From assembly GCA_021791545.1 (NCBI GenBank), contig JAJYWL010000007.1, positions 3,972 to 67,971 of the forward strand: a DNA stretch of 64,000 nucleotides, in the 5' to 3' direction. Origin of the DNA: a bacterium (lineage in GTDB: Bacteria; Patescibacteriota; Microgenomatia; Levybacterales; UBA12049). The position numbers and the translations under genes were made by a program. Below the pieces are notes generated by a model. That model saw only the letters and a list, made by a program, of their open reading frames with translations, was not told the origin of the DNA and did not search any database. This document shows, piece by piece, positions 3,389 through 45,057 of this stretch (the stretch's first letter is position 1; each line of letters starts with the position of its first letter).

Positions 3389-4309
3389 ATGGGAGTCTTG
3401 GGTGTAGGAGTAATTTCTGCTCCTTTTCTGGCCAGCACTTATCCCGTATTTTCCTCTAACGCTTCTACTTCATCGGCAGTAACAAATCTTTCAGGACAAC
3501 AGTCGATTACGGTAGGAGAAAATGTATTCCAGACCGATGTTTCTCAAAAACCTAGAGACAAAACAATAACCTATACGGTTCAAAGAGGAGACACAATCTC
3601 AACAATTGCCCAAAAGTTTGGAATTTCGACAGATACTATTAAATGGGAGAATGATTTAACAGACGATAGCCTTAGTGTAGGAGATACGTTAAGAATACTT
3701 CCAGTTTCGGGAATCTCATATAAGGTTCAAAGCGGTGATACAGTCTATACTATTGCTAAGAAGTTTGATACAGAAGCACAGAAGATTGTAGATTTTCCGT
3801 TTAACGATTTTGCAAATCCTGAAACCTTTTCCTTGGTAACAGGACAGATGCTTCTCGTACCTGATGGAATTAAGCCTTCCGAGCAGCCTTATGTCAAACA
3901 TGAAGTCTATGTAGCTCAAGGTCCTACTACTTCATTCGGCTCCGGAGGATTTACATGGCCGGTTCATGGAATAGTTACACAGTTTGCTTCCTGGTATCAT
4001 ATGGCTTTGGATTTGGCGGCTCCTATAGGTACTCCTATCGTTGCCGCAAGAAGCGGTAGAGTAGTCCAGGTAAATACGGGAGGATGGGATTATGGATACG
4101 GAAACGATGTAATAATAGACCATGGTGATGGAACTACGTCTCTTTATGCCCATATGGAAGCTGTAAATGTAAGTGCAGGGCAGACAGTAACAGGTGGAAG
4201 TAGTGTAATAGGATGGATAGGTATGACCGGAAGAACAACAGGACCTCATGTTCATTTTGAAATTAGAAAGAACGGAGTAACCGTTAATCCTATGTTATAT
4301 CTCCAGTAA
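3389..4309 (+). CDS. LysM-domain M23 family metallopeptidase (peptidoglycan hydrolase).
   Basis: Two LysM repeats (YTVQRGDTISTIAQKFGIS..., YKVQSGDTVYTIAKKFDT...). M23 motifs are HMALDLAAPIGTPIVAARSGRV, DHGDGTTSLYAHM and GRTTGPHVHFEI. The ORF track starts at 3185, but that 68-aa extension overlaps the rho 3' region and is low-complexity. The Met at 3389 precedes the hydrophobic signal MGVLGVGVISAPFLAST. Confidence 0.85.
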   Translation: MGVLGVGVISAPFLASTYPVFSSNASTSSAVTNLSGQQSITVGENVFQTDVSQKPRDKTITYTVQRGDTISTIAQKFGISTDTIKWENDLTDDSLSVGDTLRILPVSGISYKVQSGDTVYTIAKKFDTEAQKIVDFPFNDFANPETFSLVTGQMLLVPDGIKPSEQPYVKHEVYVAQGPTTSFGSGGFTWPVHGIVTQFASWYHMALDLAAPIGTPIVAARSGRVVQVNTGGWDYGYGNDVIIDHGDGTTSLYAHMEAVNVSAGQTVTGGSSVIGWIGMTGRTTGPHVHFEIRKNGVTVNPMLYLQ

Positions 4310-4312
4310 TAG

Positions 4313-4383
4313 TGGACTTACCGAGAATCGAACTCGGAACTGTACAATGCGAATGTACCGGTATACCATTTACCTATAAGCCC
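4313..4383 (-). tRNA. tRNA-Ala (anticodon CGC).
   Basis: Hand-folded reverse complement: acceptor GGGCUUA/UAAGUCC with G3:U70. D-arm GGUA-AAUGGUA-UACC. Anticodon stem GUACA/UGUAC with loop UUCGCAU. T-arm CCGAG-UUCGAUU-CUCGG. Discriminator A. CCA is not encoded. Confidence 0.8.
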
Positions 4384-4421
4384 CAGAGTATAATAACAGT
4401 AAATTAAAGATAAAATCAAGC

Positions 4422-4450
4422 TTGCACATGGAATATCACTGGAGTACAAT
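4422..4450 (+). promoter_or_regulatory. Sigma-70-like promoter (TTGCAC-N17-TACAAT) driving the leaderless 4457 gene.
   Basis: Read directly from the sequence. The -10 hexamer ends 6 nt upstream of the ATG at 4457. Confidence 0.5.
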
Positions 4451-4456
4451 TTATAT

Positions 4457-5161
4457 ATGTTTTATGAGAAGAATTTAAAAGAGGAGGCGATAAAACTTAG
4501 ATTAAAAGGATTTACTTATACTGAAATTAATAAAGAGTTGGGAATTATTATACCTAAGGGAACATTAAATGCTTGGTTAAAGAAGGTTTCTCTCCCGGAT
4601 AACTATAAAGAAAGAATAAAAAAGATTAATAATTTAAATTTAGATAAGGCAAGGACAAAAGCTTTAAAAGTGAATAAATTAAAAAGGGAAGAGTATTTAA
4701 GGTCTTTAGATAAGCTGAATATTGAAATAAGTGAAAGGATTAAAAATCCAGCTATTGGAAAAATAGCTTTAGCAATGCTGTGTTTGGGAGAAGCAAGTAA
4801 ATACAAAAGCGGGAGATCATTTAACCTTGGTAGCTCAGACCCTAAAATAATCAAAATATTTTTGGAGTTGTTAAGGACATGTTTTAGCTTTAAAACTTCA
4901 AAAATAAGGTGTACCGTCCAATGTAGAGCTGATCAAGATCTAAATCAATTGGAAAAGTTCTGGATGGAGATTACAGATATCCCTAGGGAACAGTTCTATA
5001 AACCTCAAATAGACAAAAGAACCATAGGAAAGCCAACACTAAAGGAGGATTATAAAGGAGTATTAAGAGTTGATTATTTAGACAGAAATGTTCAATTAGA
5101 GCTAGAATCGTTGGCAAATTTGATATATAATCAATTGAATTCCAAAGGGCCCGAAGTTTAA
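4457..5161 (+). CDS. HTH-containing LAGLIDADG-like homing-endonuclease family protein. Paralog of 44312..44932.
   Basis: N-terminal HTH (TYTEINKELGIIIPKGTLNAWLKK). The core LAMLCLGEASKYKSGRSFNLGSSDPKIIKIFLELLRTCF aligns with YWAEGNKKDFMLSNTDPKLIKVFVEGLRNIF of the paralog. This is a degenerate LAGLIDADG-type motif (L..GE.S / WAEG). Promoter TTGCAC-N17-TACAAT lies at 4422-4450 and ends 6 nt before the ATG, so the start is leaderless. The 3' end overlaps tRNA-Ala(GGC) by 15 nt. Confidence 0.45.
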   Translation: MFYEKNLKEEAIKLRLKGFTYTEINKELGIIIPKGTLNAWLKKVSLPDNYKERIKKINNLNLDKARTKALKVNKLKREEYLRSLDKLNIEISERIKNPAIGKIALAMLCLGEASKYKSGRSFNLGSSDPKIIKIFLELLRTCFSFKTSKIRCTVQCRADQDLNQLEKFWMEITDIPREQFYKPQIDKRTIGKPTLKEDYKGVLRVDYLDRNVQLELESLANLIYNQLNSKGPEV

Positions 5162-5219
5162 ATGGTTGAACATTTGGCTGGCAGCCAGAGGGTAGCGGGT
5201 TCGATCCCCGTCGGGTCCA
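5147..5219 (+). tRNA. tRNA-Ala (anticodon GGC).
   Basis: Acceptor GGGCCCG/CGGGUCC with G3:U70. D-arm GUUU-AAAUGGUU-GAAC. Anticodon stem UUUGG/CCAGA with loop CUGGCAG. T-arm GCGGG-UUCGAUC-CCCGU. Discriminator A. No encoded CCA. Confidence 0.8.
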
Positions 5220-5396
5220 CAATTTCCACCAAACTTGCTATTTATCCTCAAAACCTATATACTCCAAATAGATGAACAGGGAACCAATCACTTCTCTCTG
5301 AATGAGCGAGGAAAGTTGACCCCAAGAATATGATCAGAGAGGAGGTGACATTTAAGATAGTTAAATAGCAGCTAAAACTGCTTAACTAACCTCAAT

Positions 5397-5693
5397 ATGG
5401 ATTTTCAAGACAAAACATTAGTATGTAGAGATTGCGGTAAAGAATTTACATGGACCGCATCCGAACAAGATTTTTATCAGAAAAAGGGTTTTACAAACGA
5501 ACCAGTTAGATGCCCAGATTGCAGAGCTTTGAAAAAAGCTAGAATGAACGAGGGCAGAGGAGGAGGACCAAGACAGTCTTTTGAAATAACTTGCGCACAA
5601 TGCGGAAGAAAAGACACTGTTCCTTTCCAGCCTAAAGGTGATAGGCCGGTTCTTTGCAGAGATTGTTTCAGAAGCAAGAGACCTACAGCATAA
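5397..5693 (+). CDS. Duplicated CxxC zinc-ribbon protein.
   Basis: Two CxxC...CxxC modules: CRDCGKEF...RCPDCR and CAQCGRKD...LCRDCF. Basic, 98 aa. Confidence 0.7.
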   Translation: MDFQDKTLVCRDCGKEFTWTASEQDFYQKKGFTNEPVRCPDCRALKKARMNEGRGGGPRQSFEITCAQCGRKDTVPFQPKGDRPVLCRDCFRSKRPTA

Positions 5694-8029: not shown

Positions 8030-11000
8030 TTAATTGACAATAATCCAGTTAAATGGAATATTTGACGTTGCAAAATCGGGAAGTCCGACGGTAAATGACT
8101 GTCCCGCAACTTGTCTGATAAGGTAGATTACCTGGTTTTTTGTATCTGCTGTCGGCGTTATATAAATGAGTGATTTATCTGTTACAAGTGAATTATCTAT
8201 TGTTACTTCTTTTTGATGTGCTGCTATCCAGGCAGTTCCTGCTGAACCGGTTGCCGTAATTTCTGTTTCCGATAATGCTTGAGCAGGTTGTATTAGGCTT
8301 AAGTTAAGCTTTGCAAATGTTCCGGCACCGGAAGCTGTAAGATCTCCAGATTTTCCGTTAAGGCTAAGAATAGATGATCCTGTCGCATTTGTGACGTTAA
8401 GATTTGCCACTTTTCCGGATGGGGAGGCAAGGTTAATTGCCAAGTCATTTCCCGGAATTGGTGCAATAGCGTTGGCATATAGAGTTCCTTTAACTTGGAC
8501 ATCCGATCCGAAGGTTACGTTTCCGTTTGTATCTATATATACAAGACCTGCCATTATTGAGACTCCACCTTGTTTAAGAGGTTGAATGTTAAAGTCAGAA
8601 CCTAATACATTAATAGAGTTATTTGCAAGTATTAAGCTTCCGTTTATTGCTACCTGTCCTGTTATAGATACATCGGATAGGGAAGAAGGTCCAAATACTG
8701 TAAGTCCTTCGGAGAAGGCAGCAGTCTGGGAAGAAAGCGTGGGAACGTATGAAAGTTGTCCTGACATTGAAGATATATCCATATAACCCGTTCCTGTCTG
8801 TGTTTGGTTTGTTGTTCCTGAGGAAGTACTCGTTGAAGAGCCGTTTACAAGACCAAAGTTTGTGTTAGATGAAGGAGTACTATTATATACATTAGTAATA
8901 TTGGTTACATAAGTTGCAGAAGAGCTTCCTGAAACTATCTGATCAGCAATGATTTTCCCTACATGTAAAGTTCCAGAAATACTTGCATCATTTGTATCTA
9001 ACTGATTAGAGGTTAGCTTTCCACTGAAGCTGGCGTTGCCTTGATTATCTATTGTTGCAACGGCAGAACCGGAAGAATTATTTGTGTTCAAAACAGATAA
9101 TTTATCATTTTCAAACCTTAAAGCTACTGCTGAGCTTGTTGCAGTAGGGGCTATTAGATTTGTTTTAATAGAATCCGATGCAATAGGTGAGACAACTTGT
9201 CCATTTGCATTCTGACCAACTATGTTATTAACAATAGTAGCTATATAGTCTCCAAGGTTTTGTCCGTTTACAATTATTTGCTGTGCATTTACAACTCCTG
9301 CTCTTAGATTTGCGACTGCAAGTTGCGCAAATGCTCCAACTCTATCAATAGGATTTCCTAAAGCATCAGATATTGAATAGTAGTGGGGAACAGTAAAATC
9401 AGCGCTTGTTGTTGCTTGGTCAACAATGCTCATATCTCCTGTAGATGTAAGATAGACCTGGGGATCAGAAAATCCAGGTTTAATAAATACCAAAATTTTT
9501 CCGTATGCATAGCAGTCGGGCTCATTTTGAGTACAGGTAGAATCCAAAATTTGCCACTGTCCGTTTATTAGTCTTGCCGATTGGGTTGCACTTGAAGGAT
9601 CAAAATCTGTTAAAGCTGTTCCTACAACCATTCCTGCTTTGGTTGCTTTCATTCCAACTCCGGGAATTTCGCTTGATGTTACTAGGTCACCGACTTTAAT
9701 AGGGCCATTTTTAGAAGTGACTTTTACCGGAATACGTCCTGCAACTGTCAAGGGTCTTTCATTAGATTCCCAGAGATTGTCTGAATTAAAATTGTTATTA
9801 ATTAACATTCCCGGGTTTTCGCTTATTGCTCCTATTAAATCAGGTGAATATGGAGTACTTGTTTTCGAAGCTAAAGCTTTTTGGTAAATGTCTTTTACGC
9901 TGTTGTCATAATCTTTTGCAGCAACTATATCACCAGAATCAATCGATTGATCTTTTATTCTTATAGTTTCAGCGTAGTCAGGTGTGGTGCTTCCTGTAAT
10001 CGTACCTGCTGCTCTTATGATACCGGTTAAGCTGATTGATACAAGGCTTGTCCCACCGTTTCTTTCAAACATTAATTTTCCGGTTGTAGCAGAGCTTGCC
10101 GTCAGATAAGTGTCCATCCAATATGTTGAGTTTTGTGTCCATTTTAATCCTCCTTGTCCAGCTACGCTACCGCTACTTACAACAGTTACCCATTGTCCAG
10201 CCGATCCTGATGGATCCATGTATACGTTCCCATAGAAACCTGAGTTATCTATATTCAAAGCTGAAGATGATCCGTTTCCTCCGAGGTGAAGAGCACCAGC
10301 TGTATCCGCAACCAAGTACATGTCGGAATTACTGGTAGATCCGTCACCAACATACCCAATTCTTGTTCCACCGCTGTCATAAAAACCTAAATAGGCATTG
10401 CTTGTGGCTCCTGTAGCTTGACCATACAATCCTACATAATGGGTCTCGTTTATTCTCATGGCTAATGTCGGGTTTGTGTTTACTGCATTTATAGTGTTGA
10501 AATCAAAGTAACCTCCGGAGGTATCAGAAACAAATCCTATGCTTGCTGCTCCATACGTGCTTCTTGCGAATGCTCCGTCGCTTGATCTTCTGTTAATTGC
10601 AAGATAAGCAGCATCAATATATGTATCCATATACATTCTATTTCCGCTTGACGAGCCTATACTCCAGTTGGAATTAGCCGTCCCGTTGCCAATTGATAGA
10701 TTTTCGGCTGGGGATGTGTTTCCAATTCCGATGTTTCCACTTGATCCGGTAATTGTGCCTCCTCCGCTTCCAAGTTTAAGACTCGCTATAGCACTATTAC
10801 TATTTCCATAAAGACCAAGAGTATTTGCAACATCAATATCTGTAAAGAATGAATCGTCACCTACTTGAAGTAATTTTGCCCCAGGATTACTTCCGCTGTC
10901 TTCAATAAGTATGCCTCCATTAGTTCCTCCTCCGCCAAATACGTCCATTTTGTATCCTGAGGTAGGGCTGGTTACGTTGACTCCAATATTTCCGAGATGA

Positions 11001-14000
11001 TCTATCATCATCCTTGTCTGTGCTCCGGTAGCAAAAGAATTTGTGGTTGCAAAATACATCTTAGTTCCGTAGGCTCCGCTAGATTGTACATAAATACCAG
11101 CTTGAGCAGTATTGCCGGATGAAGATTGTCCTGCACCAAAGGTAATTCCATTAGCATAGTCAGCAACGTTTGTAGGTGCTGTTAAATGTATGCCATAAGT
11201 GGTAGCGAGTCCGGGAGTTGTTACATTTATGGTACTACTTTCGGATACATCTAATAAATCATTTGGAGCAGTTATTCCAATTCCAACGTCTCCTGTGCCC
11301 GTTATTACCATTCTTTGATTAGTACCGCCTGTTAAAAATGAAATTGGAGCATTGTTTCCTTGGAATATGTTTAGAGAGTTAGCTCCTCCATAACTTGCTA
11401 ATGCTGTTCCTCCTGCAAAAACACCCATGTTTTGAGCAGCATCGCTTTTAAGTAATAAATATGCATATCCTGCAGAATTGGTATTTTGTATCTCTCCAGT
11501 GATGCCGGATGAAGAATTTCCATAAATATGTAAAGGACTTGCAGGGCTATCTGTTCCTATTCCCATATTTCCACCATAGCTGTAAAAGGCGTAGGTAGGG
11601 TTAGTTTGTGTTCCAGCAGGAAGAGACGCAACTGAAGCAGAATTTGTTGGTGAAATTGTAATATTATTACTTGCGCTTAAAGCTGTGTATGTATATTCCT
11701 CATAGCTTGTTGGATTTTTAACATATAAAGTACCAGTAGTTGGTCCCGCATAGCTCGTTAGAACAAAGACTATGTTTGCTGCCTTAATTCCATAAAGATA
11801 AGAAGCCTGTAAAGAAACAATTGGGGGACTTCCAAATGCCGCCTGTTGTTTTACTTGCAAATGTACAAGGGCATTATCGTCAGATTGAGATCCTGCAGCG
11901 CCTTGTTTCGAGATTAAAATATCTGCTGTCCCATATCCATATTGGGCAGGAATACTTACAGATGCAATAGGGAAGTATTGATTTGTATAGGTACCTCCTC
12001 CTGTAGTTGTTGTCCACCCAGACATTATTCCTTGTTCGAATAATCCTATTCCTCCGGCAACATCAAGTTTCGTAGTCGTACCAGTAATAGAATATGTTCC
12101 TATTCCGGCAGCTCCTGCTGTCGTAAGAGAAGTTCCCGAAGCTGCTGGGTCAAGGAAGTATGAGTTGTTGTCCAAGTCAGTAAAGGATCTACCATATATA
12201 GAACCAAGATTTGTAACTTTAAATTGTAGTCTTCCAAGAGCAGGGGATAGACCTGATGAAGCATTTATTAAATCTCCTGCCCCGGTATTGCTGTCTATTC
12301 CTAAAGCAGGTCCACTTGTTGTTCCCGAGAAAGAAGCGATAGGAGTAGTTGCTGAACTTCCTCTTACATCTAAAGTCGCAAGGGGAGCTGATATGCCAAG
12401 GCCAAGATTTCCTAAATGGTCTAATCTCATTTTTTCTGTGTAGGTTGCTCCATTTCCTACCATAAACCCTATATAACCGCTTTGATCTGTGGCTGAGAAG
12501 GCAGCATCTGTTCCGAAATTTATTCTTCCGACATCTTTGAAACTCGTTCCGTTATATGCTCTACCTACAAGAGTAGTTACGTCGGAATTTGCTGTTGCTA
12601 TTGTAGGAGCTGCTTTTGTTCCTTTTGCAACCTGAAGAATTAAAGCAGATTGTCCTGTTGTGCTTCCCGTGTAATTATCTACTTCTACACTTGGATACCT
12701 TGGTGCAGTGCTTGAATCATTTTCTACTACTATTATAGAATTCATATCATTTCCTACCACATTTATTCCCCCTCCATAGCCTTTATTTGGAGTAACAATT
12801 AATTGTCCGCTAAATGAAGCTTGAGTTTGGTTTCCCATTAAACCTGTGAATGCAAAATCTGCAGATGCTGTCGAAGATCCCCCTATAAGAAGATCATCTC
12901 CAGATTGAACAGGGGATAGAGCACCCGAAAGTTCTTGCCAAAAGTTATATGTAGTCGGACATGTTCCCCAGGCAGGTATACTTGATCCGGAAAGAAGACA
13001 TTGTCCGGAAGTTGTTGTTGATGAGACTGAAGTAACAAGACCTGTTGAATTTGCAGAATAGAGTACTGCATTGTTTCCATTGTTATTAACAAGAGTAAGA
13101 GTTTTCCCTGTTGGTATTGTAGTATTTCCATTTAGAGAAACTGTTCCTGTTCCTGTTGCAAAATTACCAGTTCCTGACATTGTTATATTTCCTGAACCAT
13201 CAATGGTTAATCTTGTTGAAAGGGTTTCTGGGTTTACTCCTGATACTCCTGCGGTTGATGTCATAAAATATATGTTTCCTCCAGCAGCGTTTCCTGTAGA
13301 TATTCCGCTTGCTAGGGTAAGATTGGCTCCTGTAACGTTTGTACCTGATCCTCCGCTGGCGTGTAGTATAACTTGTCTGGGAGAAGCCGTAGTAACTCCG
13401 TTTCCAAGATAAAAATCTTGTATGTAGCTTGTGCCCGTATTTCCTCCTATAACTGCTTGATTCGACCCTGTCGCAATTGCGTTATACCCTAAAGCAAGAG
13501 AATAATTAAGGTTATTCGAAGACATATCTGCATATGCTCCGATTATGGTGTTATTGTTTCCAACAGTAGGAACTGTGCCTGCATATGCTCCTAGTAATAC
13601 ATTATCTGTTCCTCCTCCTAAATTAACTCCAGCTTGATATCCGAGTAAGGCATTTTCAGTACCTGTGCTCAAGTTTGTACCTGCGCTTGTTCCAACAGCT
13701 GTGTTGTATCCTGAAGCAGTAGGGTTGCCAGCAAATCCTCCTACAAATATATTTGAAGTGCCATAGGCAGAAAGTATATTTGTTCCTCTAAATGCATAGC
13801 CTGTATAGCTATTAACTCCTCCTCCGTATCCCTTGTTTGGCATTATGTTAAGTTGTCCGCTAAATGATGCTTGTGTCTGGTTTCCCATCAGACCTGTAAA
13901 TGCAAAATCTGCAGATGCTGTTGAAGAACCTCCTATAAGAAGATCATCACCTGGTTGAACGGGGGAGAGAGCACCTGCTAGTTCTTGCCAGAAGCCTGCC

Positions 14001-17000
14001 CCTCCATTTGTAAGAAGTACACCATTGGAATAGATATTTTGACCATATATGTTTCTCCACTGGTGTGTGGCATCTCCTAAATCTATCTGCTGATTGGTTG
14101 TAGGGGCAACATTTGATCCTGTTCCTCCGGAGGGAGCTATGGCTAGATTTCCTGAGGTAGCTAAAAGTTGGACATTGTTTGTAGTTGCTCCATCATAAAT
14201 TTGGATTCCTCCTGTTCCTCCTCCATAATCGTAGTTAAATCTAACAGCAGAAGTACCTCCGTTTGAAGATATATCCAAGATTCCGGATGCTCCTGTTTTT
14301 TTAATAACCGTATCTCCACTTGAAGCTGTAAAACTTAATCCATTTCCTGTTGTAGTTATAGCTCCGGTTGCATCAACTTGAAAATTGGAAGAAGATCCAA
14401 CGGAAAATAACGCAGCTGAATTGGAATTTCCTATTCCAACATATCCGGAGCTATTAATAGTAAGTCTATCTGTATACGTTTCTGCGCCATAGGCTGTTCC
14501 ATTGGTTCCTTGCTGAATCCTAAAATCAAAATTGCTGCTTGCCAAGTAAAGTCTTGCACCTGTTCCTATTCTATTTCCTGATGTAGTTCTGTAAAGAGTG
14601 ATTGCTGGATTAGCATTGCCCTGAACAGATTCTCCGATTGTTACCAATGAATTAGCTGAAAGAAGAAATTCTGCTGAACTCGATGCAAATGGAGTTACAG
14701 GAGTACTGGCTGAGACAGAATTTTTAAATACAGCTCCGTTTCTTACATCAAGCTGAGCAACTGGATTATTTGTTCCGATACCAACATTGCCAGCAAAATA
14801 GCCTTGTCCGTCTGCTCTCACGCTAAAATTGGTGGTTGAACCAGTTACTCCTTGAAAATAGGTGTTATTAGCACCCGTTAAATTGTCTGTTATTGCCTGG
14901 AATATTCCAGGCGCACCGTAAGAATATCCTGATCCTACTTGGTGTCCTGTAAAAAATACTTGCCCAGTTGTGCCCACTGATGCAACAGCACCGGTTGTAT
15001 TTACGGTAAATTGTCCATTGGAACTGTTGGGACCTACAGTTAAAAGTTGTCCTGGATTTGTTGTTCCTATTCCAACATTTCCTGAACTGGCTTGTATCGT
15101 CATCCAAGTAGACGTGGCATTCATGTTGGTAAATCTTAGATCAGCTCCCGTTCCGGCTCCCATTGCTGCACCTGCGCTTTCGATATAATTTATTCCACCG
15201 CTGGGAACGAATTTAAGTCCACTTAAGACGCTTGCTAGTGTTCCATTATCTCGGATATATTGAGTACCAAAAACATCTAGGTTAACTTGTGGAGCTGCTG
15301 TGCCTATACCAACATTGCCTTCTACAATAAGACCGTTTGAGGGAGGGGTAGTGGTGACATATGTTGATCCAATAGCCTGACTCCCGCTTACTTCCAATAC
15401 AGCTCCAGTATTACTATATGTTGCTCCTGTATTCGATAAAACAAAGCCACGACTAGTTGCTGCATTTAAAGAGACACCTCCCTGATAATTTGCTAGTATA
15501 TATGCATTATTGGCTGTTCCACTATTACGTCCAGTTAGGTTTAATTGAGCGTTTGCGCTTCCTGCTCCTGCGTCAATAGTAAAGGCTCCGGTAGTATGGC
15601 CGGTACCTGTTACGTCAAGAGTATATGCGGGAGTGTTTGTTCCAATTCCAACATTTCCTCCGTATCCATTATTTGGCATTACGATAAGTTGTCCGCTGAA
15701 GCTGGCTTGTGTCTGATGGTTTGCAAGTCCAAGTCCTGTGAATGCAAATTCGGCGGATGCTGTCGAAGATCCTCCTAGTAATAGATCATCTCCTGACTGA
15801 ATAGGGGACAGAGCTCCCGAAAGTTCTTGCCAGTAGTTATAGTTTCCTGTAGAACAGCTTCCCCATGAGGCATTTGCTCCTCCGATAAGACATTGTCCTG
15901 CTCCTGTTGAGGCTCCCAGTGTAATTGCTCCGGAAGTTAAGGTTAATCCGGTAGAGGCTGCTATTGCGCCTGATGAATTAACTTGGAATTGAGCCGAAGA
16001 TCCTACATTAAATAAGGATGTGGCTGTTGTTCCGCCTATTGTAAAGTTACCGTTGGTGGCAACCATATATCGTGGAGGATAGCTGGCTGAGGATGAATCA
16101 AAAACCAACGTTCCCGTGGGGATAGATGTAGAACCAGTTGGATTAGGGTAAACAGTAGCTTGAATAGATTCTGTAATATTATAGGAGATAGACGTATAGC
16201 TGGTTGCTTTGTGGTAAGTATAGACTGAAATTGATCCGTCTGTTTCCTGATAGGCCAGAATCTTAGCTTTACTTCTTACATCTCCAAATAGATCATATTC
16301 ATATTTAAAGCCATTTCTATTACCCATTAAGATATTGAATTGGGATTTTTGATTGCTGCCCCAGCCATCGTCAAGAATTCCGTTAATAACTATATGATCG
16401 TATGTCGCGCTTGTGGAAATTGGTAAAGTTGCTATTTTATAATAAGTGTCGGAAGCAGGATTAACTCCTGTTTGGCTCCAACCCCAAACGGTATTGTTTA
16501 TTTGTGCGCTATTTCCTACTACTTGAAGAGCAGTTTGTGGATTATTGGTTCCTATTCCTAAATTTCCACCAGTTAAATAAGAATTTCCACTGGAGCTAAG
16601 TTGGACAGTAGCGCTTGCTCCTGAATAATCGTTTATGCCCGGGCTTATTAGAAATGCTGAAGCATTAGCAGCGGAGTTGTTAAACTGAACAATTTTACCT
16701 GTTTGATCTAATCTAAAAGATTGATGACTAGTTGTATTGACAACATTGGTAAGATTTATAGTGGTAGCTTGAACCGTACCACTTGTGTTACCGGGTGTGC
16801 CATTCCCGATATTTATATATCCATCTCCTCCCCTTGAGATTCCCGTAGTGACTGATCCTGATCCGTTATCCCAACCAAGTGATCCTCCCGAACTTAAGGT
16901 TAAAAGTTGTCCTGGGTTTGTTGTTCCAATTCCAACATTTCCACTACTATTTATTACCATTGCCGTTCCTGTTCCAAAGGAATTATTATTAACATTAAAT

Positions 17001-44112: not shown

Positions 44113-44156
44113 AAAAATATTTTAAATGGTTGAGTAAACGGATGCAAGAAGAAAAG

Positions 44157-44228
44157 TCGGGGTGCCGGGAATTGGACCCGGTACCTCTCGGTCCCGAACC
44201 GAGCGTTCTACCGATGAACTACACCCCG
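44157..44228 (-). tRNA. tRNA-Pro (anticodon CGG).
   Basis: Reverse complement folds as acceptor CGGGGUG/CACCCCG, D-arm GUUC-AUCGGUA-GAAC, anticodon stem CUCGG/CCGAG with loop UUCGGGA, T-arm CCGGG-UCCAAUU-CCCGG, discriminator A. The T-loop has C55, which is unusual. Confidence 0.7.
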
Positions 44229-44276: not shown

Positions 44277-44305
44277 TTGACAAGAAGGTCTCATTTGGTC
44301 ATAAT
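44277..44305 (+). promoter_or_regulatory. Near-consensus sigma-70 promoter TTGACA-N17-CATAAT, leaderless to the ATG at 44312.
   Basis: Read from the sequence. Same arrangement as the promoter of the paralog at 4457. Confidence 0.5.
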
Positions 44306-44311
44306 TAAATT

Positions 44312-44932
44312 ATGGCTAGACGCTTGAGTGAAAAAGAACTTAATAAATTGAAATTTATGAGAAAGAAAGGGAAAAGTATACTAGAAATTTCTAAAATTTT
44401 GAATATTCCTAAAACTACAGTTTTTTATCATGCAAAACAAGTGAAAATGTCTTCAGAAGTTTTGAAAGCATGGAGAACTAAGAGGGGAGGGAGTAAGAAT
44501 TTAAAATTTGAAAAAGAGAAAAAAGCTTTTGTTGAGGCTAAAAAAGAAATCGGAAAGTTATCTAAAAAGGAAAAGTTGCTATTTCTTTCAGCACTTTATT
44601 GGGCAGAGGGTAATAAGAAGGATTTCATGCTTTCCAATACAGACCCTAAACTAATAAAAGTGTTTGTTGAGGGTTTAAGAAACATTTTTGAAATAGACGA
44701 TGAAAGGTTAAAAATAAGCATAAGAATATATGAAGACATGGATAAAGAAAAGTGCCTTACTTTTTGGTCTAGTTTGATTGGTGTTCCAAAACAAAAATTT
44801 CAAAATGTTTATATTCTTAAAGGAAAGAAGCAGGGAAAACTGAAGTTTGGGATGTGTAGAGTAAGGGTAACTAAAGGCGGGGACCTGTTAAAGAAGGTAT
44901 TTGCAATAAATAATATTGTTGCTAATTTTTAA
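44312..44932 (+). CDS. HTH-containing LAGLIDADG-like homing-endonuclease family protein. Paralog of 4457..5161.
   Basis: N-terminal HTH ILEISKILNIPKTTVFYHAKQ. LLFLSALYWAEGNKKDFMLSNTDPKLIKVFVEGLRNIF aligns with the 4457 paralog. Lies between tRNA-Pro (-) and tRNA-Arg (+). Confidence 0.45.
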   Translation: MARRLSEKELNKLKFMRKKGKSILEISKILNIPKTTVFYHAKQVKMSSEVLKAWRTKRGGSKNLKFEKEKKAFVEAKKEIGKLSKKEKLLFLSALYWAEGNKKDFMLSNTDPKLIKVFVEGLRNIFEIDDERLKISIRIYEDMDKEKCLTFWSSLIGVPKQKFQNVYILKGKKQGKLKFGMCRVRVTKGGDLLKKVFAINNIVANF

Positions 44933-44956: not shown

Positions 44957-45028
44957 GCCTCCGTAGCTCAATGGATAGAGTAGTCGCGTCCTAAGCGATC
45001 GATGCAGGTTCGATTCCCGCCGGGGGTA
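44957..45028 (+). tRNA. tRNA-Arg (anticodon CCU).
   Basis: Acceptor GCCUCCG/CGGGGGU (with G-U pairs). D-arm GCUC-AAUGGAUA-GAGU. Anticodon stem GUCGC/GCGAU with loop GUCCUAA. T-arm GCAGG-UUCGAUU-CCCGC (one A-C mismatch). Discriminator A. Confidence 0.65.
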
Positions 45029-45057
45029 CTAGATAAAGATTCTTTTACATAATTATT

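What the first reader, a model, noticed from the sequence alone, without database searches (positions are those of the whole stretch)
4313..5219. HTH-LAGLIDADG-like gene wedged between two opposed tRNA-Ala genes, leaderless, overlapping the tRNA 5' end
A 234-aa HTH plus degenerate LAGLIDADG-like protein lies between tRNA-Ala(CGC) on the minus strand and tRNA-Ala(GGC) on the plus strand. Its stop codon is 15 nt inside the downstream tRNA. It has a near-consensus promoter (TTGCAC-N17-TACAAT) placed for a leaderless transcript. A paralog at 44312-44932 occupies the same kind of slot (see separate finding). The repeated tRNA(-)/HEG-like(+)/tRNA(+) arrangement suggests a tRNA-locus-targeting selfish element. 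Alternatively it could be a tRNA-associated factor such as a processing or anticodon nuclease/immunity protein.
Basis: partly seen in the sequence, partly recalled or inferred. Interest (0 to 1): 0.6.

Follow-up and report, generated by a model that had tools for sequence, protein, structure and literature searches.

The report
Homing-endonuclease-like gene welded to tRNA gene
The gene belongs to a large, unannotated family of DNA-binding, nuclease-like proteins in ultra-small (CPR) bacteria and large phages, and each branch of the family sits directly in front of one particular tRNA gene and comes and goes between sister genomes like a selfish mobile element.

Summary
ORF 4457-5161 (234 aa) lies between tRNA-Ala(CGC) on the minus strand and tRNA-Ala(GGC) on the plus strand. 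Its stop codon is 15 nt inside the downstream tRNA. A promoter is placed for a leaderless mRNA, and a 27%-identical paralog (44312-44932) precedes tRNA-Arg(CCT).

The conserved feature is ORF-then-tRNA, not the flanking tRNA pair. In 162 of 170 family ORFs from 164 loci a same-strand tRNA starts -51 to +35 nt from the ORF end. None of the 8 exceptions is an intact ORF with a tRNA-free downstream flank. Subfamilies pair with fixed tRNAs: Ala-GGC, Arg-CCT, Lys-CTT, Gly-GCC, Gln-TTG.

Eight close relatives lack the gene at the same locus. Carriers and non-carriers interleave on host-marker trees, and the linked tRNA allele is swapped along with the gene. Phage homologs sit inside tRNA arrays.

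Best reading (0.6): a free-standing homing-endonuclease-like cassette specialised on tRNA genes. Cleavage and target site are untested. A domesticated tRNA-gene-specific factor remains possible.

The parts
4384..5146 (+). Cassette (promoter plus ORF) that is absent from the otherwise collinear locus of a close relative (L179)
   Evidence: In the window-versus-L179 alignment, homology runs over 4256-4383 and from 5147 onward, and nothing in between aligns. L179 has the same tRNA orientation with a 109-nt spacer and no family gene.
4422..4450 (+). Sigma-70-type promoter TTGCAC-N17-TACAAT. The -10 hexamer ends 6 nt before the ATG, so the mRNA should be leaderless.
   Evidence: The position is conserved in 70 of 80 family-A loci, and sequence conservation begins at the -35 element.
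4457..5161 (+). ORF A, 234 aa, a family-A (tRNA-Ala(GGC)-linked) HTH plus LAGLIDADG-like protein
   Evidence: AF2 model has pLDDT 92.7.
4457..4591 (+). N-terminal helix-turn-helix domain (residues 1-45; R15 and G18 invariant)
4604..4744 (+). Single long helix (residues 50-96) that links the two domains
   Evidence: DSSP on the AF2 model.
4748..5137 (+). LAGLIDADG-like core (residues 98-227). Helix 98-112 ends in the motif L-C-L-G-E112-A-S-K115.
4790..4801 (+). Codons for E112-A-S-K115, the putative catalytic Glu and Lys
   Evidence: Both are invariant in 56 sequences spanning all subfamilies. They align with E117 and K120 of I-DmoI, which are catalytic there and lost in WhiA (PMC3384342).
5079..5108 (+). 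Promoter-like site TAGACA-N18-TAGAAT inside the 3' end of the ORF, 39 nt before the tRNA
   Evidence: A site of at least 9/12 lies within 45 nt of the tRNA in 76% of family-A loci, against 6% of control windows inside the ORFs. It may be partly a by-product of the conserved ELESL codons.
5147..5220 (+). tRNA-Ala(GGC), the constant partner of family A. Its first 15 nt encode G-P-E-V-stop of the ORF. This is a divergent 'type II' allele with A8.
   Evidence: Allele comparison.
4312..4383 (-). tRNA-Ala(CGC), a variable upstream neighbour that is not part of the conserved unit
   Evidence: In 51 cases with room upstream it never has a family gene in front of it.
44277..44305 (+). Promoter TTGACA-N17-CATAAT of the paralog, 6 nt before its ATG
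44312..44932 (+). ORF B, 206 aa, the family-B (tRNA-Arg(CCT)-linked) paralog
44957..45029 (+). tRNA-Arg(CCT), the constant partner of family B
   Evidence: In one search, 64 of the 83 family ORFs tabulated over 80 loci precede tRNA-Arg(CCT). The rest are distant members with other tRNAs, truncated copies, or one frameshift fragment.

Best explanation
The window holds two copies of a compact cassette. Each copy has a sigma-70 promoter, a leaderless ORF and a tRNA gene. The ORF encodes a free-standing protein that resembles a homing endonuclease.

The protein has an N-terminal HTH, a 47-residue helix and one LAGLIDADG-like domain. That domain keeps the metal-binding Glu and the neighbouring Lys. 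With a single LAGLIDADG domain, the protein would have to act as a homodimer.

Inferred mechanism: the protein recognises DNA in or beside its cognate tRNA gene on chromosomes that lack the cassette. It cuts there, and recombinational repair from a cassette-bearing copy copies in the ORF together with the adjacent tRNA allele. CPR bacteria take up DNA, and phages meet during co-infection, so a donor copy is plausible in both settings.

The tRNA gene would serve three roles. It is a conserved landing mark. It is a safe harbour, because insertion in front of it leaves the tRNA intact. It also forms the 3' end of the transcript.

The ORF runs up to or into the tRNA, and no terminator-like site was found between ORF and tRNA in either window copy. 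RNase P cleavage at the tRNA 5' end would therefore remove the stop codon or leave it at the very end of the mRNA. That would keep expression of the nuclease low.

Shown here: the anatomy, the family-wide pairing with tRNAs, the match between subfamily and tRNA, the presence/absence between sister genomes, the tRNA allele swapping, the phage relatives, and the conserved residues. Inferred: cleavage, the target site, dimerisation, co-transcription, and the RNase P effect.
For: 1. Linkage. Of 170 family ORFs in 164 loci from Microgenomates, Parcubacteria, Saccharibacteria and metagenomes, 162 are followed by a same-strand tRNA at -51..+35 nt. The 8 exceptions are four ORFs cut by a contig end, two fragments of frameshifted copies, one ORF that reads through the tRNA, and one rearranged locus.
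2. Specificity. Family A always precedes Ala(GGC) and family B always precedes Arg(CCT). More distant members precede Lys(CTT), Gly(GCC), Gln(TTG), Met(CAT) or Ile(TAT). Protein clades follow the tRNA partner. tRNA-Ala(CGC) (0 of 51), Pro(CGG) (0 of 21) and Phe (0 of 14) never have the gene.
4. Mobility. An unbiased sample taken through the neighbouring LysM/M23 gene found 8 independent relatives (68-76% identical) with no family gene. In 7 of them the two tRNA-Ala genes lie 0-157 nt apart or are cut by the contig end (L174); L172 has no tRNA at the locus. Carriers and non-carriers interleave on the LysM and Rho trees, for example (window+, (L172-, L179-)) and (L001+, L182-).
5. Co-conversion signature. 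The window shares its tRNA-Ala(CGC) and both flanks with the empty L179. Its tRNA-Ala(GGC), however, is a different allele. It differs from the allele of the empty loci over much of its 5' half (62% identity there against 91% in the 3' part) and is identical to the allele next to the gene in L001.
6. Bystander tRNAs. Arg(CCT) lacks the gene in 18 family-A loci and Ala(GGC) lacks it in 15 family-B loci. Both B-Arg-Ala and Arg-A-Ala arrangements exist.
7. Phage relatives. Seven full-length homologs on IMG/VR contigs of 21-447 kb lie in tRNA-rich stretches. Six sit inside same-strand tRNA arrays, including one locus with 23 tRNAs in 5 kb; L165 has a single upstream tRNA.
Against: - No cleavage assay has been done and no target site was identified.
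- tRNA alleles next to the gene show no consistent difference from alleles at empty sites. A resistant-target-allele model therefore has no support, and the common 'type I' allele occurs both with and without the gene.
- Within carriers the protein's divergence tracks the flanking genes (r = 0.63; 53-62% against LysM 40-74%). The locus is syntenic in about 24 species. Much of the gene's history is therefore vertical with repeated loss, which also fits a dispensable host gene.
- Degenerate copies are rare (2 frameshifted among about 165). The classic homing cycle predicts many.
- The predicted core has an extra helix between strands 3 and 4 and a reduced first hairpin.
- There is only one LAGLIDADG domain, and dimerisation was not modelled.
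Confidence: 0.6

Rival explanations
1. The protein is a domesticated, tRNA-gene-specific DNA-binding factor. It derives from a LAGLIDADG endonuclease and now serves the host, for example by regulating its own promoter and the embedded tRNA promoter. Alternatively it acts as a cis-encoded chaperone for its cognate tRNA precursor, by analogy with WhiA or with LAGLIDADG maturases.
For: - The gene shows long vertical retention with purifying selection. It is 38-62% identical across the whole CPR, and its divergence tracks host flanks.
- Pseudogenes are rare.
- The pairing of subfamily with tRNA is strict.
- A promoter-like site for the tRNA lies inside the ORF 3' end in 76% of family-A loci.
- The family-A promoter is conserved in sequence beyond its hexamers and could be an operator.
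- WhiA and I-TevI are precedents for regulator roles (PMC3384342).
- The unusual A8 tRNA allele was seen only next to the gene.
Against: - The same tRNA species functions without the gene in 8 of 8 sampled close relatives and in more than 30 bystander cases.
- Carriers and non-carriers are sister lineages.
- The catalytic Glu and Lys are invariant, unlike in WhiA and in inactive maturases.
- Phage homologs sit in tRNA arrays, where free-standing endonucleases are usual.
Confidence: 0.22
2. The ORF persists mainly as a translated leader of the tRNA transcript. Once a 700-nt sequence sits between promoter and tRNA, keeping it translated up to the tRNA prevents Rho-dependent termination. The protein itself would then be a decaying relic.
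For: - The ORF always ends within a few codons of the tRNA or inside it. The distance from the protein core to the tRNA is 5-60 nt.
- The transcript is leaderless, and no terminator-like site lies between ORF and tRNA.
- Rho is encoded in these genomes.
Against: - This accounts for an open frame but not for invariant residues, or for 38-62% protein identity across a superphylum.
- Many family-A loci seem to have a tRNA promoter close to the tRNA, which would make read-through unnecessary.
Confidence: 0.08
3. The protein is an ordinary conserved housekeeping or regulatory gene that merely happens to lie beside tRNA genes, or a tRNA-directed toxin/immunity (anticodon-nuclease) module.
For: Local synteny Rho - LysM/M23 - tRNA - gene - tRNA - zf_Tbcl is conserved in about 24 species. 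All database names are 'hypothetical' or 'HTH domain-containing'.
Against: - Adjacency in 162 of 170 ORFs, with different tRNAs for different subfamilies, cannot be coincidence.
- The gene is absent in sister genomes.
- There is no match to defence-system models beyond the HTH.
- No partner gene is conserved next to it.
Confidence: 0.04

Closest known systems
Free-standing homing endonucleases in phage tRNA gene clusters (T4/T6 SegB, GIY-YIG; own knowledge, and PMC13096335 listed)
   Same: Both are stand-alone endonuclease-type genes lodged among tRNA genes. The phage homologs of this family occupy exactly that niche. The chromosomal copies show swapping of the adjacent tRNA allele, as expected from co-conversion.
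   Different: The fold is different (HTH plus LAGLIDADG-like, not GIY-YIG). Most copies are bacterial and chromosomal. Each subfamily is tied to one tRNA. The ORF is leaderless and ends at or inside the tRNA.
LAGLIDADG homing endonucleases (I-DmoI, I-CreI, I-Tsp061I and others)
   Same: They are the best structural matches. The family shares a helix ending in an acidic residue followed by G/A-x-K, in the same register as I-DmoI E117 and K120.
   Different: No Pfam LAGLIDADG model is matched. The family has a single domain with an extra helix between strands 3 and 4 and a reduced first hairpin. It has an added N-terminal HTH and a long linker helix. It is not inside an intron or intein.
WhiA/DUF199 (domesticated LAGLIDADG plus HTH regulator)
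   Different: [quoted passage not shown] This family has one domain and an N-terminal HTH, keeps the Glu and Lys, and is sporadic.
Intron-encoded endonucleases in bacterial tRNA genes (for example LAGLIDADG in cyanobacterial tRNA-Arg(CCU) introns; HNH in Patescibacteria tRNA-Asn introns; PMC13011429)
   Same: These are endonuclease genes that exploit tRNA genes as conserved targets. The host phylum is the same, and tRNA-Arg(CCU) recurs as a target.
   Different: No intron is present here. The tRNAs are uninterrupted and Rfam finds only tRNAs. The gene lies upstream of the tRNA, not inside it.
Mitochondrial 'tRNA punctuation' with leaderless mRNAs and incomplete stop codons (own knowledge)
   Same: The inferred transcript anatomy is similar: an mRNA with no 5' leader whose 3' end is defined by a tRNA.
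   Different: This is an analogy only. The system is bacterial, no processing data exist, and here the stop codon lies inside the tRNA rather than being completed by polyadenylation.

Membership tests
LAGLIDADG homing endonucleases | [quoted passage not shown] | tested here: inconclusive
LAGLIDADG homing endonucleases | Acidic residue at the C-terminal base of the LAGLIDADG helix (metal ligand) | tested here: met
   E112 is the last residue of helix 98-112. It is invariant in 56 sequences from all subfamilies and aligns with I-DmoI E117.
LAGLIDADG homing endonucleases | Conserved basic active-site residue | tested here: met
   K115 is invariant and aligns with I-DmoI K120 (role per PMC3384342). 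The alignment itself is statistically weak.
LAGLIDADG homing endonucleases | Match to curated sequence models (Pfam LAGLIDADG_1, _2, _3, Hom_end) | tested here: not met
   The window proteins give no hit. LAGLIDADG_3 is hit by 2 of 56 members at best E 0.0088, which does not amount to a family-level match. A profile search against PDB returns only HTH-like matches.
LAGLIDADG homing endonucleases | Two LAGLIDADG helices packed together (homodimer or tandem domains) | not testable with these tools
   There is one domain per protein. No multimer prediction was available.
LAGLIDADG homing endonucleases | Site-specific double-strand cleavage of a long target | not testable with these tools
   This needs biochemistry. 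No candidate target could be derived from allele comparisons.
Homing-endonuclease genes as mobile elements | Sporadic presence/absence at one homologous site among close relatives | tested here: met
   Eight independent relatives lack the gene at the same locus. Carriers and non-carriers interleave on the LysM and Rho trees. Bystander tRNAs also lack the gene.
Homing-endonuclease genes as mobile elements | Co-conversion of flanking markers or mosaic flanks | tested here: inconclusive
   The window's tRNA-Ala(GGC) allele differs from that of its empty sister L179 but equals the allele in L001. L003 and L004 proteins are 82% identical yet sit beside unrelated tRNA alleles. No extended high-identity tract was seen beyond the tRNA.
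Homing-endonuclease genes as mobile elements | Frequent degenerate copies (homing cycle) | tested here: not met
   Only L037 and L133 are frameshifted among about 165 copies.
WhiA/DUF199 | Two degenerate LAGLIDADG domains plus a C-terminal HTH, with catalytic residues lost | tested here: not met
   The family has one domain, an N-terminal HTH, and retains the Glu and Lys.
Group I intron-encoded tRNA endonucleases | Gene lies inside a self-splicing intron that interrupts the tRNA | tested here: not met
   The tRNAs are continuous at 72-74 nt. Rfam at gathering threshold finds only four tRNAs in the window.
SegB-type phage tRNA-cluster endonucleases | GIY-YIG catalytic domain | tested here: not met
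   No GIY-YIG match appears in Pfam or PHROGs. Only the genomic niche is shared.

The most novel reading that the evidence does not exclude
The ORF and its tRNA form a co-evolved two-part module rather than a parasite and its landing site. Each subfamily protein would act specifically on its own tRNA gene or precursor, as a tRNA-gene-specific regulator or a cis-acting 'tRNA maturase'. Its synthesis would be gated by tRNA maturation, because RNase P cleavage removes the stop codon of the leaderless mRNA. This would be a bacterial analogue of mitochondrial tRNA punctuation, used for feedback between a tRNA and a dedicated protein.
Probability: 0.2. Interest if true: 0.85.

Novelty: new variant of a known kind. 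Interest (0 to 1): 0.7.

Why it matters
If correct, CPR bacteria and large phages share a large gene family (5,471 clusters at 50% identity with E <= 1e-3) that is currently annotated only as 'hypothetical'. Its members would be free-standing endonuclease-like genes that have specialised, lineage by lineage, on individual tRNA genes.

- This would add a third route by which homing endonucleases colonise the translation apparatus of these reduced genomes, alongside rRNA and tRNA introns.
- It would explain why tRNA loci there are hot spots of rearrangement and allele exchange.
- It would supply a panel of natural proteins with presumably distinct long DNA specificities.
- The transcript anatomy, a leaderless ORF whose stop lies inside a tRNA, is a directly testable case of coupling between translation and tRNA processing in bacteria.
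- Annotation pipelines could use the ORF-then-tRNA rule to name thousands of proteins.

Tried and rejected
- Pfam, NCBIfam, PHROGs and PADLOC on the window proteins and relatives gave only HTH-type hits.
- Sequence and profile searches of PDB found nothing for the C-terminal domain.
- tblastn against INPHARED phages found no match.
- I looked for a 'resistant' tRNA allele by comparing tRNAs with and without the gene. No fixed difference emerged.
- I looked for long high-identity tracts around the shared type II tRNA allele between the window and L001, L005 and L007. Only the tRNA itself is highly similar.
- The single-sequence promoter scan is not above chance. Only the cross-species positional conservation carries weight.
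- A group I intron or other RNA element in the locus is ruled out by Rfam.
- The idea that the flanking pair of opposed tRNAs is the defining feature was rejected after surveying 84 family-A loci.
- Literature searches found no description of this family.
Full report
**1. What is in the window**

ARAGORN and Rfam agree on four tRNA genes:
- tRNA-Ala(CGC), 4312-4383, minus strand
- tRNA-Ala(GGC), 5147-5220, plus strand
- tRNA-Pro(CGG), 44156-44228, minus strand
- tRNA-Arg(CCT), 44957-45029, plus strand

Between the first pair lies ORF 4457-5161 (234 aa). Its ATG is the first possible start after the preceding in-frame stop. Its TAA occupies tRNA positions 13-15, so the last five codons (G-P-E-V-stop) are tRNA sequence.

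TTGCAC-N17-TACAAT ends 6 nt before the ATG. Between the second pair lies a 206-aa paralog (27% identity, E 1e-12) with TTGACA-N17-CATAAT-N6-ATG.

**2. The constant feature is ORF-then-tRNA**

Homolog searches gave 614 relatives for ORF A and 427 for ORF B, all from CPR bacteria where a name is given.

I fetched 80 species-level genome loci for family A and 80 metagenome loci for family B and more distant members. I then scanned all of them for tRNAs.

- Of 170 family ORFs, 162 are followed on the same strand by a tRNA that starts -51 to +35 nt from the ORF end.
- The 8 exceptions are four ORFs cut by a contig end, two fragments of frameshifted copies, one ORF that reads through the tRNA, and one rearranged locus.
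- Family A always precedes tRNA-Ala(GGC), and family B always precedes tRNA-Arg(CCT).
- More distant members precede Lys(CTT), Gly(GCC), Gln(TTG), Met(CAT) or Ile(TAT).
- A neighbour-joining tree groups the proteins by tRNA partner.

The upstream neighbour varies: tRNA-Ala(CGC) on either strand, another tRNA, or none.

Stop codons inside the tRNA are whatever comes first in frame: U8-A9-G10, positions 13-15, or U36-A37-A38. The conserved protein core ends only 5-60 nt before tRNA position +1.

**3. Expression signals are conserved**

In 70 of 80 family-A loci and 49 of 60 family-B loci a -10-like hexamer ends 5-7 nt before the start codon. Sequence conservation starts at the -35 element. Only 11 of 157 loci have an SD-like motif. 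A leaderless mRNA is therefore a family trait.

No terminator-like site separates ORF and tRNA in either window copy. In 76% of family-A loci a promoter-like site lies within the last 45 nt of the ORF, against 6% of control windows. The tRNA may thus also have its own start. Part of that signal may come from the conserved ELESL codons.

**4. The protein**

AF2 gives a confident model (pLDDT 92.7). It has a three-helix HTH (residues 5-41), one helix of 47 residues (50-96), and an alpha/beta domain (98-227).

The HTH is confirmed by Pfam in up to 26 of 56 members.

For the C-terminal domain:
- Foldseek against PDB is silent.
- Pfam LAGLIDADG models are not matched.
- hhalign against I-DmoI is weak, at 3% probability (sequence verified as PDB 1b24). 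Its only alignment puts the family motif L-x-L-G/A-E112-G/A-S/N-K115 on I-DmoI G-L-Y-V-A-E117-G-D-K120.

E112 and K115 are invariant across all subfamilies. In I-DmoI the corresponding residues are catalytic, and they are lost in the domesticated regulator WhiA (PMC3384342).

I conclude, with moderate confidence, that this is a divergent single-domain LAGLIDADG protein that has kept its active-site residues. It would need to dimerise to cut DNA. That was not tested.

**5. Is it a fixed host gene or a mobile one?**

Among carriers the locus is syntenic in about 24 Microgenomates species: Rho, LysM/M23 peptidase, tRNA-Ala(CGC), gene, tRNA-Ala(GGC), zf_Tbcl. The protein's pairwise identity correlates with that of the LysM/M23 neighbour (r = 0.63). 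This points to long vertical descent under purifying selection.

That sample was chosen through the gene itself, however. I therefore sampled the locus independently through homologs of the LysM/M23 gene (look-ups).

- All eight independent relatives (68-76% identical) lack any family member, even as fragments.
- In seven of them tRNA-Ala(CGC) is still present, and where both tRNA-Ala genes are on the contig they lie 0-157 nt apart. L172 has no tRNA at the locus.
- L179 has the same divergent tRNA orientation as the window, with a 109-nt spacer where the window has 763 bp (4384-5146).
- On the LysM and Rho trees, carriers and non-carriers interleave: (window+, (L172-, L179-)), (L001+, L182-), L005+, (L173-, L175-, L176-), L181-.

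Bystander tRNAs tell the same story. Arg(CCT) lacks the gene in 18 family-A loci and Ala(GGC) lacks it in 15 family-B loci. Both B-Arg-Ala and Arg-A-Ala arrangements exist.

**6. The tRNA travels with the gene**

The window's tRNA-Ala(CGC) and both flanks match the empty relatives. Its tRNA-Ala(GGC), however, is a divergent allele with A8 and different D and anticodon stems. It is only 62% identical to the L179 allele over the 5' half, against 91% in the 3' part, and it is identical to the allele beside the gene in L001.

Simple insertion or deletion of the ORF cannot produce this pattern. The ORF-plus-tRNA unit was exchanged as a block.

L003 and L004 have 82%-identical proteins beside unrelated tRNA alleles. 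The tRNA is therefore a recombination boundary.

No longer conversion tract was seen. No allele feature separates filled from empty sites. The target site remains unknown.

**7. Phage relatives**

Seven full-length homologs (E 1e-27 to 1e-48 against the family profile, same MLYW[AG]EGSK motif) occur on IMG/VR contigs of 21-447 kb. Six lie inside same-strand tRNA arrays, one locus with 23 tRNAs in 5 kb. L165 has a single tRNA about 400 nt upstream. Neighbours of L165 look like jumbo-phage auxiliary genes.

This is the niche of known free-standing endonucleases such as T4 SegB (own knowledge; PMC13096335).

**8. Interpretation**

The best-supported reading (0.6) is a free-standing, homing-endonuclease-like cassette specialised on tRNA genes. 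The tRNA gene would serve as conserved landmark, safe harbour and mRNA 3' end.

Inferred consequences:
- RNase P cleavage would strip or expose the stop codon and limit expression.
- Translation up to the tRNA would avoid Rho polarity.

The main rival (0.22) is a domesticated tRNA-gene- or tRNA-specific factor. Long vertical retention, rare pseudogenes and conserved promoter sequence favour it. Dispensability in sister genomes, retained catalytic residues and the phage niche weigh against it.

**9. Novelty**

All database names are 'hypothetical' or 'HTH domain-containing'. No curated family covers the protein. Literature searches, including the recent survey of tRNA introns in Patescibacteria, do not mention it.

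A profile search found 5,471 clusters at 50% identity with E <= 1e-3.

The kind of element, a free-standing endonuclease gene at tRNA loci, is known. The fold combination, the one-subfamily-one-tRNA rule, the bacterial chromosomal setting and the leaderless ORF ending inside the tRNA appear to be new.

Noticed in passing
window 5254-5396: The non-coding stretch between tRNA-Ala(GGC) and the zf_Tbcl-type zinc-ribbon gene (5397-5693) is 86-96% identical to the same stretch in L179. It can form a hairpin in which CACUUCUCUCUGA pairs with UCAGAGAGGAGGUG and so sequesters the Shine-Dalgarno sequence. The folding energy is not exceptional (z = -1.4).
   Followed up: partly
window 5147-5220; also L001, L005, L007, L033: The tRNA-Ala(GGC) next to the gene is an unusual allele with A8 instead of the near-universal U8 and an AU-rich D stem. 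It was seen only beside family-A genes. The two ORF-linked tRNAs in the window score lower against Rfam tRNA (51.6 and 55.3 bits) than the two unlinked ones (63.6 and 62.5).
   Followed up: partly
window 8030-19834 (-): A single ORF of 3,934 aa lies on the minus strand, a giant protein of the kind common in CPR genomes. It was not examined.
   Followed up: no
L001 versus L182; L175: The tRNA-Ala locus is a synteny break point. The sister genomes L001 and L182 carry unrelated tRNA-Ala(CGC) alleles and different downstream genes, and L175 has transposase genes (rve, Transposase_mut) on both sides.
   Followed up: partly
L169 2540-3235 (-): In one phage tRNA array, a second ORF overlaps the family member on the opposite strand. 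It has a weak HTH match and motifs that resemble a different nuclease type. This may be another free-standing endonuclease in the same array.
   Followed up: no
L111, L112, L123, L136 versus L044, L053, L063, L072: tRNA-Arg(CCT) and tRNA-Ala(GGC) are frequent neighbours across the CPR. The family gene sits before the first, between the two, or before both (L078, L130). This suggests an ancestral tRNA pair that was colonised repeatedly.
   Followed up: partly
window 4390-4419 (-): A promoter-like site with an extended -10 (TTGATT-N18-TATTAT, TG upstream) lies on the minus strand and ends 6 nt before tRNA-Ala(CGC). The 73-nt spacer would then hold two divergent promoters.
   Followed up: no
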